Shown here: positions 14,486 to 62,933 of the stretch, piece by piece | Position numbering within the stretch: the stretch's first letter is position 1 | Layout: each line of letters opens with the position of its first letter | Assembly: GCA_937898545.1 (NCBI GenBank) | Contig: CALEJV010000003.1 | Coordinates: forward strand, 253,193 to 317,192 | DNA: 64,000 bases | Source of the DNA: an uncultured Candidatus Saccharibacteria bacterium | GTDB lineage: Bacteria; Patescibacteriota; Saccharimonadia; Saccharimonadales; Saccharimonadaceae | Direction of reading: 5' to 3' | Notes under the pieces: generated by a model | What the model saw: only the letters and a program-made list of their open reading frames with translations | What the model was told of the DNA's origin: nothing | Database searches by the model: none | Program-made: the position numbers and the translations under genes

Positions 14486-15670
14486 ATGGCAGATTTCGAT
14501 CGAAGTAAGCCACACATTAACGTTGGTACTATGGGTCACGTCGACCACGGTAAAACAACGTTAACGGCTGCCATCACTCACGTGTTGGCAAAGCGTCTTC
14601 CAAGCGATGTAAACAAGCCTCGCAACTACGAAGACATCGACAACGCTCCTGAGGAGAAGCAACGCGGTATTACCATCGCCAGCTCCCACCAGGAATACGA
14701 GTCGGAGAAGCGCCACTACGCGCACGTTGACATGCCAGGTCACGCCGACTATGTCAAGAACATGATTACTGGTGCCGCTCAGATTGACGGTGCTGTGCTA
14801 GTGGTTGCCGCCAACGACGGTCCATTGCCACAGACACGCGAGCACGTGCTGCTTGCTCACCAGGTTGGTGTGCCAAAGATCGTCGTCTTCCTCAACAAGA
14901 TGGACTTGGCCGACCCAGAGTTGGTTGAGCTAGTTGAGATGGACGTCCGCGAGCTGCTCACCAAGAACGGCTACGATGGCGACAACGCACCAATCATCAA
15001 GGGTTCTGCCACCAAGGCGCTCGAGGGCGACACCGAGGCAGAAGACGCCGTGATGGAGCTGGTGGCTGCTATGGACGACTACTTCGAGTTGCCTCAGCGC
15101 GACCTCGACAAGCCATTCTTGATGCCAATCGAGGATGTCTTCTCGATCAAGGGTCGTGGTACAGTTGCAACTGGCCGTATCGAGCAGGGTGTCATCAAGA
15201 TCAACGACCCAGTAGAGATTGTTGGTCTTAAGCCAACTCAGACCTCTGTCGTGACTGGTGTTGAAGCCTTCAAGAAGAGCCTCGACCAAGGTCAGGCAGG
15301 TGACAACGCTGGTCTGTTGCTGCGCGGTATCGAGCGCACCCAGATCGAGCGCGGTCAGGTGATTGTCGCTCCAGGCACACTCACCCCACACACCGAGTTT
15401 GAGGCGGAAGTCTACATCCTTAAGAAGGAAGAGGGTGGCCGCCACACACCATTTAGCAAGGGCTACAAGCCACAGTTCTACTTCCGCACAACGGACGTGA
15501 CTGGTGAGATTGAGCTCCCTGCCGACAAGGAAATGGTGATGCCAGGCGACCAAGTAACCTTCAAGGTGACCTTGAACGCCCCAATCGCTATGGACAAGGG
15601 TCAAGACTTCGCTATCCGCGAAGGTGGCCGTACAGTCGGTGCCGGTGTTGTGACTAACATCGTCAAGTAG
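14486..15670 (+). CDS. tuf: Elongation factor Tu
   Basis: [41 protein letters not shown]. Confidence 0.99.
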
Positions 15671-15694
15671 TTTGCATAGTACTCGCAAACTCAC

Positions 15695-15724
15695 AAAAAT
15701 ACCTCCCACAGGGGAGGTATTTTT
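15695..15724 (+). terminator. Intrinsic terminator after tuf
   Basis: AAAAATACCTCCC-ACA-GGGGAGGTATTTTT followed by a T-run. Confidence 0.85.
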
Positions 15725-61548: not shown

Positions 61549-61613
61549 AGGGACTCTACGTAACGCCCATCGATACCACTATCACCTCGCGACACATGGT
61601 ATACTAGACTATA

Positions 61614-62933
61614 ATGAGAAAATCAACATTCGCAACAATCCAGCTCGAAAAGATCGTCGGTGGTGGGCAAGCCCTCGGCACGCTTGATGATGGGCGCAAA
61701 GCCTTCGTCTGGGGTGGACTACCGGGCGAAACCGTCACTATCCGCATCACCAAGAAGAAGTCGCACTTCGTCGAAGGAGTGGTGACTGAGGTGCTCGCTG
61801 CTTCGCCCGAGCGTATCACGCCACGCGACCCCGAGAGCTACCTCAGCACCAGCCCATGGCAAATTATGCCGCTGGCGAGCGAACAGCATTATAAGGCAGC
61901 GCTGATCGAGGAGGCCTTTGAGTTGCACGATATTGTCTTGCCAGAGCCGATCGACGTTTTTTGCGATGATATACCCTATGGCTACCGTAATAAAGTTGAG
62001 CTGAGTTGGTATAGCGACAGGGCAGAGGATGGCACCGAGACGCTCGACCTCGCGTTCTTTCGGCGGGGGAGCAAGGGCAAAATTGTCGTTGACGGGACGA
62101 GCTTAGCTCGGCCAGAGATCAACCAGCTCGCCCGGCAGGTGCGCGACCTGCTGCGCACCAAGCAGGTGACGGCGCGCCAGCTCAAGACACTCCTCATCCG
62201 CTGCGACCAAGCGGGCAACTGCGTGTGGCAGCTTTATACCAAAGACCGCCTGGGGGATGTTATCAGCCCAGACGAAGCTATCACACTGCCAGCCCAGGGC
62301 GGCGAGATTATCTACTCCGACCCCCGTTCGCCAGCCAGTCGCATCACCGAGCGCTTGGCATACTTCGGTGATCCTGTCTTGCAGGATACCGTTCTTGGCG
62401 TGCCATTTCGCTACGCCACTGAGGGGTTCTTCCAGGTTAATCTGCCGGTCTACGAGCAAGCCCTGCGCGACATGCAGCGGTTCACCCAGGTGCAAGATGG
62501 CACACCACAGCCCACCCTCGACCTTTATGCCGGGGTAGGGACGATTGGCCTGACGATTGGCAGTGATAACGTCACGCTAGTAGAGATCAACGCCGATGCG
62601 GTGCGCGAGATGCAGCGTAATATCCACCAGCTAGGCCGCACGGGCCAGGCCAAGGCTGTTCTCGCGCCCAGCGAGCAAGCGCTAGAGTACATTACTCGCG
62701 ATGCGCTCATCATTCTCGACCCACCACGCGCCGGCCTCCACGTCGATGTCATTACCAAACTCCTCGCTACCCAGCCGCAGCGCATCCTCTACCTCAGTTG
62801 CAACCCCGTCACTCAAGCACGCGACGTGGCGCTTCTTGCCACGCACTATGGCATTGCCTACCACCGAGGCTATAACTTCTTCCCCCGCACGCCACACTGT
62901 GAGCATTTGGTGGTGCTTGACCGGCTTACGTAG
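61614..62933 (+). CDS. RlmD/TrmA-family RNA (uracil-5)-methyltransferase with TRAM domain
   Basis: LPGE.V, GYRNK, F.QVN, DLYAGVGTIG, LDPPRAG, LSCNP.T.ARD and FP.T.H.E. Confidence 0.93.
   Translation: MRKSTFATIQLEKIVGGGQALGTLDDGRKAFVWGGLPGETVTIRITKKKSHFVEGVVTEVLAASPERITPRDPESYLSTSPWQIMPLASEQHYKAALIEEAFELHDIVLPEPIDVFCDDIPYGYRNKVELSWYSDRAEDGTETLDLAFFRRGSKGKIVVDGTSLARPEINQLARQVRDLLRTKQVTARQLKTLLIRCDQAGNCVWQLYTKDRLGDVISPDEAITLPAQGGEIIYSDPRSPASRITERLAYFGDPVLQDTVLGVPFRYATEGFFQVNLPVYEQALRDMQRFTQVQDGTPQPTLDLYAGVGTIGLTIGSDNVTLVEINADAVREMQRNIHQLGRTGQAKAVLAPSEQALEYITRDALIILDPPRAGLHVDVITKLLATQPQRILYLSCNPVTQARDVALLATHYGIAYHRGYNFFPRTPHCEHLVVLDRLT

What the first reader, a model, noticed from the sequence alone, without database searches (positions are those of the whole stretch)
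14729..61863. System-wide loss of cysteine metal ligands in cytoplasmic core proteins
Seen in sequence, beyond beta': L36 has no CxxC/CxxxxH (20005-20121); L33 has no Cys (34422); S4 starts VKQSRREG rather than CxxCRREG; DnaX lacks the C4 zinc module entirely (AHEINGLPYTDESTHLDIIEID, about 52180-52240); HolB lacks it too; the RlmD [4Fe-4S] motif CxxxxxCGGC reads DPESYLSTSP (61821-61863); EF-Tu DCPGH is DMPGH. Predicted exported proteins (6836, 40599, 63546) keep paired Cys. Inference: adaptation to zinc limitation or oxidative stress, or loss of Fe-S/Cys supply pathways, giving largely metal-thiolate-free information machinery.
Basis: partly seen in the sequence, partly recalled or inferred. 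Interest (0 to 1): 0.8.

Follow-up and report, generated by a model that had tools for sequence, protein, structure and literature searches.

The report
Zinc-cysteine sites purged from Saccharibacteria core proteins
This Saccharibacteria (TM7) genome really lacks the cysteine zinc sites of RNA polymerase, primase, clamp loader, DNA ligase, RecR, NrdR and all zinc-ribbon ribosomal proteins, but the losses are old, stepwise and shared by its whole order, and many other zinc sites remain.

Summary
The sequence facts hold. L36, L33, S4, DnaX, HolB and EF-Tu lack the cited cysteines, and RlmD lacks the Fe-S cysteines.

A genome-wide audit adds both beta' zinc sites, DnaG, LigA, RecR, NrdR, S14, S18, L28, L31 and L32.

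Kept sites include UvrA, RadA, PriA, DnaJ, Fpg, LeuRS, CysRS, ThrRS, Tgt, Def, NrdD, NrdG and a Fur-family protein. "Largely thiolate-free" is therefore overstated.

In a 30-genome panel the losses are derived and nested:
- beta', DnaX, S4 and RecR are lost in every same-order genome and kept in nearly all other Patescibacteria.
- DnaG is lost after the first split within the order.
- L36 and LigA are mosaic. The Cys-less LigA forms one clade that conflicts with the RpoC tree.
- NrdR is lost only in the window's family.

Cytoplasmic CxxC density is about one third of that in other Patescibacteria. Conserved orthologues carry 25-41% fewer Cys. Total Cys here is ordinary (0.8%).

SufBD and ZnuA are absent from most of the phylum, so they explain nothing.

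Several cited examples are weak. EF-Tu Cys is not a metal ligand. Cys-free L33 and S4 occur in E. coli. Cluster-free RlmCD is a solved structure.

The driver (zinc economy or thiol-oxidation avoidance) is unresolved. No paper describing this was found.

The parts
1658..1774 (+). RpoC (beta') N-terminal zinc-binding domain, same length as in other bacteria. The four ligand positions read P, D, V, N (FGPVKDINPHDSKLKGVRSREAAVDKNGELV).
   Evidence: Cys-less in 30/30 same-order genomes and in 14/14 order-level panel sequences covering the site. CxC..CxxC is kept in 14/14 other Patescibacteria.
4001..4291 (+). RpoC second zinc site (E. coli C814, C888, C895, C898). It reads ...VEDEEGD... and ...SVLSTKNLHGIPRKSYG...; no ligand Cys is left.
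   Evidence: The full site is absent in all 15 order-level panel genomes (some keep one Cys) and kept in 15/15 other Patescibacteria.
14486..15670 (+). EF-Tu, Cys-free, DMPGH in place of DCPGH. This Cys is not a metal ligand.
   Evidence: Two order relatives also have 0 Cys and DMPGH. A non-order Patescibacterium has 7 Cys and DCPGH.
20005..20121 (+). Ribosomal protein L36, C-minus form ([25 protein letters not shown]).
   Evidence: C-minus in 11 of 13 order genomes (C-plus in G093 and G154). C-plus in 13/13 other Patescibacteria.
20916..21533 (+). Ribosomal protein S4 without the N-terminal C4 cluster. It also has a 6-residue deletion there.
   Evidence: Cys-less in 15/15 order genomes. The cluster is present in about 10 of 14 other Patescibacteria.
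28947..29774 (+). HolB (delta') candidate without a zinc module. The start codon is uncertain; the open frame begins at 28788.
   Evidence: It is a secondary DnaX-like hit. Alignment: no module in 12/12 order genomes, present in 4 of 7 other Patescibacteria. Coordinates.
34422..34631 (+). Ribosomal protein L33, C-minus form.
   Evidence: No Cys.
52009..53517 (+). DnaX (tau/gamma), Cys-free. The roughly 22-residue zinc module of domain I is deleted (site at 52180-52245).
   Evidence: Deleted in 15/15 order genomes, present in 14/15 other Patescibacteria.
61614..62933 (+). RlmCD/RumA-family RNA uracil-5 methyltransferase without the four [4Fe-4S] cysteines. The catalytic SCNP Cys is kept.
   Evidence: The best solved relative is S. 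pneumoniae RlmCD (5XJ1), which also has no Cys at these positions.
6836..7822 (-). Predicted membrane-anchored or exported protein with 4 Cys, at 171/195 and 287/311.
   Evidence: Genome-wide, exported proteins show an even:odd Cys bias of 61:24.
40563..41138 (+). Predicted exported or anchored protein with 4 Cys (107, 111, 158, 173).

Best explanation
The window belongs to a human- or animal-associated member of the order Saccharimonadales (Saccharibacteria/TM7). In this order, structural Zn(Cys)4-type sites of information-processing proteins have been replaced by metal-free versions, step by step and apparently irreversibly.

Shown, two routes of replacement:
- The domain is kept with non-ligand residues: beta' ZBD, DnaG CHC2 domain, RecR, NrdR ribbon, LigA.
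- The small module is deleted: DnaX, S4.

Shown, order of events:
1. Base of the order: both beta' sites, DnaX, S4, RecR.
2. After the first internal split: DnaG.
3. Spread of single Cys-less alleles across lineages: LigA, probably L36.
4. In the window's family: NrdR.

This genome inherited all of these steps. Catalytic sites and some structural sites are kept.

Inferred: the direction, the all-or-none state of each site, the strong conservation of the replacement sequences and the lateral spread of the Cys-less ligA allele point to selection against zinc-thiolate sites. The benefit would be a lower cellular zinc quota, fewer oxidation-prone thiolates, or both. Drift alone fits these features less well. 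My data do not separate the two benefits; I put zinc economy and thiol-oxidation avoidance at roughly equal odds.
For: Own-genome audit: the canonical Cys sites are missing from beta' (two sites), DnaX, HolB, DnaG, LigA, RecR, NrdR, TopA, SecA, IleRS, GluRS, S4, S14, S18, L28, L31, L32, L33 and L36.

Domains persist without ligands:
- Pfam Zn_ribbon_DnaG scores 96.7 bits and Zn_ribbon_NrdR 37.7 bits.
- An AlphaFold model of Cys-less NrdR, built from an alignment of Cys-less sequences only, has pLDDT 88.5. It keeps the N-terminal three-stranded sheet and matches solved NrdR structures.

The losses are derived and nested:
- RecR: 0/31 in the order against 27/27 elsewhere.
- beta': 0/30 and 0/14 against 14-15/15.
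- DnaX: 0/15 against 14/15.
- DnaG is kept only in G099 and G083, which branch first in the RpoC tree.
- NrdR is lost only in family f1. It has strictly 0 or 4 Cys in 81 sequences, with 67 of 80 related species Cys-less.

The Cys-less LigA forms one clade (support 100/99) that is scattered on the RpoC tree.

Proteome level: cytoplasmic CxxC is 32-37 per 100,000 aa in the order against 96-107 outside it. Orthologue Cys is 25% lower in this genome (p = 2e-4) and 41% lower in order relatives (p = 1e-7).

For zinc economy: all eight zinc-capable ribosomal proteins are C-minus.

For thiol avoidance: EF-Tu goes from 7 Cys to 0. His replaces a Cys in the kept sites of Fpg, NrdD and MetRS.
Against: - No metal content has been measured; 'metal-free' is inferred from missing ligands.
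- About 16 Cys-based sites persist, including structural ones: UvrA, RadA, PriA, DnaJ, LeuRS, ComFC.
- This genome's total cytoplasmic Cys (0.82%) is not low.
- The proteome comparison rests on two order and two non-order 400-kb samples and on a home-made gene caller.
- Neither ZnuA nor SufBD presence tracks the trait.
- The ligA pattern could reflect ancient paralogy with differential loss rather than transfer.
- TopA, SecA, IleRS, GluRS, L33, S18 and L28 forms without Cys are common in other bacteria and were not shown to be derived here.
Confidence: 0.62

Rival explanations
1. Neutral ratchet. In a small-population epibiont with fast protein evolution, structural zinc sites are lost by drift whenever a compensating substitution makes them dispensable. 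They cannot be regained. There is no selective benefit.
For: - The losses are one-way and cumulative.
- The replacement residues (P, D, V, N, S, T) are not alternative ligands.
- Several structural sites persist, as a stochastic process would give.
Against: - Other Patescibacteria are equally reduced and host-dependent, yet they keep the six non-ribosomal sites tested, plus L36, in 14/15 or more of sampled genomes, and S4 in about 10/14.
- The replacement segments are highly conserved. The beta' ZBD fragment is at least 87% identical in the listed matches, and all roughly 170 family and order genomes score E of 1e-45 or better.
- One Cys-less ligA lineage occupies hosts scattered on the RpoC tree.
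- Non-metal Cys of EF-Tu are purged too.
Confidence: 0.2
2. One reading: a recent adaptation of this particular organism to zinc starvation or oxidative stress in its host niche (for example nutritional immunity), or a consequence of losing its own Fe-S or cysteine supply genes.
For: - The genome has no ZnuA and no SufBD, and no SufS/IscS/IscU signature.
- Family-specific steps exist: NrdR and Fpg CxxC to CxxH.
- Related genomes come from human and ruminant samples.
Against: - Most losses are shared by all sampled families of the order, including environmental lineages.
- SufBD is absent from 27/30 and ZnuA from 25/30 panel genomes, regardless of zinc-site status.
- Total Cys is ordinary.
- A radical-SAM NrdG with its CxxxCxxC motif is kept.
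Confidence: 0.08
3. Ordinary variation. The listed cases are the usual C-plus/C-minus polymorphism of bacterial proteins and no more frequent than expected.
For: - Cys-free L33, S4, S14, S18 and L28 occur in E. coli (established knowledge: Makarova et al. 2001 on C-minus ribosomal proteins).
- RlmCD of S. pneumoniae lacks the cluster.
- TopA with Toprim_C_rpt repeats is a known Cys-free type (PMC9369019, title and abstract as listed).
- EF-Tu Cys is not a ligand.
Against: - Both beta' sites, DnaG CHC2, LigA C4, RecR C4, NrdR C4 and the DnaX module are kept in 93-100% of sampled non-order Patescibacteria and lost here.
- CxxC density is threefold lower.
- The paired orthologue test is significant.
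Confidence: 0.05

Closest known systems
C-minus (zinc-free) paralogues of ribosomal proteins L31, L33, L36, S14 and others, and the Zur-controlled zinc-sparing response (Makarova, Ponomarev and Koonin 2001; reviewed in PMC11672702, which I did not read in detail)
   Same: Zinc-ribbon ribosomal proteins exist in Cys-free forms that work without zinc and lower the cell's zinc demand. This genome has only such forms: L28, L31 type B, L32, L33, L36, S14, S18 and S4.
   Different: Here the C-minus forms are the sole copies, not conditionally expressed spares. The same change also extends to non-ribosomal machines (RNA polymerase, primase, clamp loader, ligase, RecR, NrdR) across a whole order.
Canonical bacterial RNA polymerase beta' with two Cys4 zinc sites (E. 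coli C70/C72/C85/C88 and C814/C888/C895/C898)
   Same: Same subunit and same domain order (five Pfam Rpb1 domains). The ZBD segment has the same length.
   Different: All eight ligand cysteines are replaced, in every Saccharimonadales genome sampled.
Mycobacterial/actinobacterial topoisomerase I with Cys-free C-terminal repeats (Topo_C_Rpt; PMC9369019)
   Same: TopA here has three Toprim_C_rpt repeats and a single Cys. This is a known precedent for replacing zinc ribbons with metal-free repeats.
   Different: That is a single-protein case in another phylum. Here it is one item in a proteome-wide pattern.
S. pneumoniae RlmCD (PDB 5XJ1), a cluster-free relative of E. coli RumA/RlmD
   Same: Best solved relative (E = 6e-27), with TRAM plus methyltransferase domains and no Cys at the RumA cluster positions.
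   Different: None relevant. This item of the finding is an ordinary family variant.

Membership tests
C-minus ribosomal protein forms (zinc-independent) | Orthologue of a zinc-ribbon ribosomal protein that lacks the paired CxxC motifs | tested here: met
   L36, L33 and S4; S14 and S18; L31 type B; L32 and L28.
C-minus ribosomal protein forms (zinc-independent) | Coexistence with a C-plus paralogue and Zur-regulated expression (the classical zinc-sparing switch) | tested here: not met
   Motif scans of all six frames found only one copy of each protein. No Zur box was sought. One Fur-family gene exists at C3:102598.
DnaG primase, CHC2 zinc-binding domain (PF01807) | Domain present at the N-terminus | tested here: met
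   Zn_ribbon_DnaG scores 96.7 bits over residues 10-98.
DnaG primase, CHC2 zinc-binding domain (PF01807) | Cys-His-Cys-Cys zinc ligands | tested here: not met
   The positions read S, S, D, S. The whole protein has one Cys, at residue 129.
NrdR repressor | N-terminal ribbon plus ATP-cone architecture | tested here: met
   Pfam Zn_ribbon_NrdR and ATP-cone both hit. The AlphaFold model matches E. coli and S. coelicolor NrdR.
NrdR repressor | Four Cys (CxxC..CxxC) holding zinc | tested here: not met
   0 Cys in the protein. The same holds in 67 related species.
RecR | HhH, Toprim and C-terminal domains | tested here: met
RecR | C4 zinc finger between the HhH and Toprim domains | tested here: not met
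   Only the first Cys is left. The same holds in 31/31 order genomes.
NAD-dependent DNA ligase LigA | Adenylation, OB, HhH and BRCT domains | tested here: met
NAD-dependent DNA ligase LigA | C4 zinc finger after the OB domain | tested here: not met
   No Cys in residues 400-470.
DnaX clamp-loader subunit | AAA+ domain I with a Cys zinc module | tested here: not met
   The AAA+ and lid domains are present. The module is deleted and the protein has 0 Cys.
RumA/RlmD [4Fe-4S] methyltransferase | Four cluster cysteines (E. coli C81, C87, C90, C162) | tested here: not met
   DPESYLSTSP occupies the motif position. The best relative is the cluster-free RlmCD, PDB 5XJ1.
Metal-free state of the altered proteins | No zinc bound in the purified protein | not testable with these tools
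   Needs metal analysis (ICP-MS or PAR assay) of purified proteins.

The most novel reading that the evidence does not exclude
Saccharimonadales, including the cultivable human oral epibionts, run transcription, replication initiation, clamp loading, nick sealing and translation with a core machinery that needs no structural zinc. This state would have been reached by a selected, still ongoing, order-wide purge of zinc-thiolate sites, partly spread by lateral replacement with Cys-less alleles. If so, it is a natural experiment showing that the 'universal' zinc sites of RNA polymerase, primase and ligase are dispensable, and it would point to an unusually low zinc quota or unusual oxidant tolerance as a lineage trait.
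Probability: 0.45. Interest if true: 0.85.

Novelty: new variant of a known kind. Interest (0 to 1): 0.7.

Why it matters
The zinc sites of beta', primase, NAD-ligase, RecR and the clamp loader are treated as near-universal. In E. coli they are needed for assembly or function.

A whole bacterial order that has removed them, while keeping the domains, shows these sites can be replaced. It offers natural sequences for learning how.

The trait also bears on the physiology of Saccharibacteria, which live on Actinobacteria in the mouth, gut, soil and sludge. A low zinc quota or few oxidisable thiolates would affect how they survive host nutritional immunity, oxidants and dependence on a host cell.

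Several members are cultivable, so the idea is directly testable. The nested order of losses gives phylogenetic markers within the order.

Tried and rejected
1. Genome-wide Cys depletion is rejected. The proteome has 0.77-0.83% Cys, and the cytoplasmic fraction (0.82%) is not below the exported one (0.71%).
2. Fe-S supply loss as the cause is rejected. SufBD is absent from 27/30 Patescibacteria regardless of zinc-site status.
3. ZnuA loss as the cause is rejected on the same logic.
4. Regex scans found no SufS, IscS, IscU, ferredoxin, ClpX, Adk, Tdk, RsgA or TadA. Absence by regex is weak evidence, so these are not counted in the audit.
5. The ORF at 53510-54862 is DnaB, not HolB. C8:18805 is an ABC ATPase, not a ClpX lacking its zinc domain.
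The proteome comparison therefore has only 2+2 genomes.
7. Sequences of the 'same class, other order' genomes could not be fetched. Their Cys status is inferred from scores only.
8. The orthologue search in the four samples covered too few of the kept zinc proteins to say whether CxxH is derived, except for Fpg.
9. Six literature searches found no description of the trait. The library lacks most subscription journals, so this is not proof of novelty.
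Full report
**Setting.** The window is C3:253193-317192 of a 1.05-Mb, 8-contig genome with 52% GC. The closest public records are uncultured Candidatus Saccharibacteria MAGs. The wider family includes Ca. Saccharimonas, Microsaccharimonas, Nanosynbacter and Nanosyncoccus, as well as ruminant-gut MAGs.

**1. The observation**

- L36 (20005-20121), L33 (34422-34631), S4 (20916-21533), DnaX (52009-53517) and EF-Tu (14486-15670) contain no cysteine.
- S4 reads IVKQSRREG.
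- DnaX reads AHEINGLPYTDESTHLDIIEID where other bacteria carry the zinc module.
- The RlmD-like protein (61614-62933) reads DPESYLSTSP at the Fe-S motif position.

HolB is at about 28947-29774 (+) and has no module. The ORF directly after dnaX is DnaB.

The exported proteins at 6836-7822 (-) and 40563-41138 (+) have four Cys each.

**2. Genome-wide audit**

I called genes with a codon-usage score. I identified targets by motif and by Pfam, then read the ligand positions directly.

The canonical Cys sites are missing from:
- both beta' sites (C70/C72/C85/C88 replaced by P, D, V, N; C814 replaced by E; C888/C895/C898 replaced by T, P, S);
- DnaG (C-H-C-C replaced by S, S, D, S);
- LigA, RecR (one of four Cys left) and NrdR (0 Cys);
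- DnaX and HolB;
- TopA (Toprim_C_rpt type), SecA (no C-terminal finger), IleRS (type 2, DUF5915 tail) and GluRS;
- S4, S14, S18, L28, L31 (type B), L32, L33 and L36.

The domains themselves persist. Zn_ribbon_DnaG scores 96.7 bits and Zn_ribbon_NrdR 37.7 bits.

Sites that are kept:
- UvrA, RadA, PriA (two fingers), DnaJ (two), LeuRS and ComFC;
- a Fur-family protein;
- Tgt (CxCxxC), Def (EGCAS/HEADH), CysRS and ThrRS;
- the NrdG radical-SAM motif;
- three sites in which one CxxC reads CxxH: Fpg, the NrdD C-terminus, and MetRS (both knuckles).

This gives roughly 21 sites lost or absent and about 16 kept. 'System-wide' is fair for structural sites of the information machinery. 'Largely thiolate-free' is not.

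**3. Is it more than usual?**

I assembled a fixed panel: this genome, two same-family genomes, 12 same-order genomes and 15 other Patescibacteria.

| Site | Same order (incl. own) with site | Other Patescibacteria with site |
|---|---|---|
| beta' ZBD and second site | 0 of 14-15 (plus 0 of 30 in a separate order sample) | 14-15 of 15 |
| DnaX module | 0 of 15 | 14 of 15 |
| S4 cluster | 0 of 15 | about 10 of 14 |
| RecR finger | 0 of 31 | 27 of 27 |
| DnaG ligands | 2 of 15 (G099, G083) | 15 of 15 |
| L36 C-plus form | 2 of 13 | 13 of 13 |
| LigA finger | 7 of 15 | 13 of 13 |
| NrdR ribbon | 12 of 15 (lost in the three family members) | 12 of 12 |

Further points from these comparisons:
- G099 and G083, the two genomes that keep DnaG ligands, form the first branch of the order in an RpoC tree.
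- Among the best 80 NrdR relatives in the species-representative collection, the N-terminus has either 0 Cys (67) or 4 Cys (13), never an intermediate number.
- A 301-genome class survey with the ZBD fragment gave E of 1e-45 or better for all roughly 170 family and order genomes.
- The same survey gave 1e-30 to 1e-37 (about 103-126 bits) for nearly all matching genomes from other orders of the class. That is essentially the score range of Cys-containing sequences (84-114 bits), although one divergent Cys-less sequence scores 121.
- The first losses therefore map to the base of the order. I could not fetch those other-order sequences to confirm this.

**4. Proteome level**

Using 400-kb samples of two order genomes and two non-order genomes:
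- Cytoplasmic CxxC density is 37 per 100,000 aa here, 32-33 in the order and 96-107 outside it.
- Proteins with CxxC..CxxC make up 1.0%, 1.6-2.4% and 3.6-5.1% respectively.
- In 167 orthologue pairs this genome has 310 Cys against 411.5 (p = 2e-4).
- In 119 pairs the order relatives have 167 Cys against 281.5 (p = 1e-7).
- EF-Tu has 0 Cys in three order genomes and 7 in a non-order one, so the purge is not confined to metal ligands.
- This genome's total Cys (0.81%) is normal, and its cytoplasmic proteins are not poorer in Cys than exported ones.
- Exported proteins show a disulfide-like even:odd bias of 61:24.

**5. How it works**

Two routes are visible. Small modules are excised (DnaX, 22 residues; S4, 6 residues). 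Alternatively, the ribbon is kept at full length with non-ligand residues.

An AlphaFold model of Cys-less NrdR was built from an alignment of 57 Cys-less sequences only. It is confident (pLDDT 88.5; 86-89 over residues 11-40) and keeps the three-stranded N-terminal sheet. It aligns over about 133-152 columns (124 for one truncated chain) with solved E. coli and S. coelicolor NrdR. That the proteins are metal-free is inference; no metal was measured.

The eight Cys-less LigA sequences form one clade (support 100/99) in the LigA tree. On the RpoC tree they are scattered: G065 is sister to Cys-containing G122, and G105 is sister to Cys-containing G106. A single Cys-less allele therefore either spread laterally within the order or is an old paralogue that was differentially retained. 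L36 shows a similar mosaic.

**6. Cause**

- SufBD is absent from 27 of 30 panel genomes and ZnuA from 25 of 30, irrespective of zinc-site status. Loss of Fe-S supply or of zinc uptake does not explain an order-specific trait.
- Zinc economy is favoured by the all-C-minus ribosome and by the retention of catalytic zinc.
- Thiol-oxidation avoidance is favoured by the EF-Tu purge, the general Cys reduction in orthologues and the Cys-to-His changes in kept sites.
- A groundwater study notes that Saccharibacteria are the CPR examples known to cope with oxidative stress in oxic soils (PMC8672522).
- Drift alone fits poorly with the retention of these sites in other reduced Patescibacteria and with the strong conservation of the replacement sequences.

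**7. What is ordinary**

- Cys-free L33, S4, S14, S18 and L28 occur in E. coli (established knowledge).
- Cys-free TopA repeats are a known type (PMC9369019, title and abstract as listed).
- The methyltransferase is closest to S. pneumoniae RlmCD (PDB 5XJ1), which also lacks the cluster cysteines.
- EF-Tu Cys81 is not a metal ligand.

**8. Novelty**

Six full-text searches found no paper on this trait. Earlier agents of this scan reported the beta' loss in other Saccharibacteria genomes and guessed at a wider purge. Those are unchecked AI notes; the tests above are my own.

I class this as a new variant of a known kind: zinc sparing by Cys-free forms, extended here constitutively and order-wide to non-ribosomal core enzymes.

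Noticed in passing
G000 C7:70752-75128 (locus L008): IleRS is 1458 aa. Its class I synthetase domain is interrupted at residues 262-577 by a low-molecular-weight phosphotyrosine phosphatase domain (PF01451) and a serine hydrolase/alpha-beta hydrolase domain (PF06821). It has a type-2 DUF5915 tail.
   Followed up: no
G000 C7:82567-84729 (LigA, L002) and panel loci L141-L168: The Cys-less LigA sequences of eight genomes form one strongly supported clade that conflicts with the RpoC tree. This suggests lateral replacement of ligA within the order, or an old paralogue pair.
   Followed up: partly
G000 C3:159341-162272: Anaerobic ribonucleotide reductase NrdD (C-terminal CxxH..CxxC, glycyl-radical motif) and its radical-SAM activase NrdG (CNMRCGYC) are present. 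No SufBD and no SufS/IscS/IscU signature was found, so how the [4Fe-4S] cluster is made is unclear.
   Followed up: partly
window 53510-54862: The ORF overlapping the end of dnaX is the replicative helicase DnaB (Cys-free), not HolB.
   Followed up: yes
window 47059-49182: A 707-aa protein downstream of thymidylate kinase has only a weak, sub-threshold RelA_SpoT match at residues 593-654 (23.5 bits against a cut-off of 27).
   Followed up: no
whole genome against order relatives: This genome has 52% GC and 0.81% Cys. Two order relatives have 43% GC and 0.49-0.61% Cys. The extra Cys here is not in CxxC motifs.
   Followed up: partly
G000 C3:102598-103358: The only Fur-family regulator found (139 aa, 8 Cys, HDHFVCSSC) lies next to a thioredoxin (WCPPC). 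It is possibly a PerR- or Zur-type redox/metal sensor.
   Followed up: no
panel loci L235 (G093) and L238 (G154): Two order genomes keep a C-plus L36, while G153, in the same family as G093, has the C-minus form. G154 and G153 are also the only order panel genomes with a ZnuA gene.
   Followed up: no
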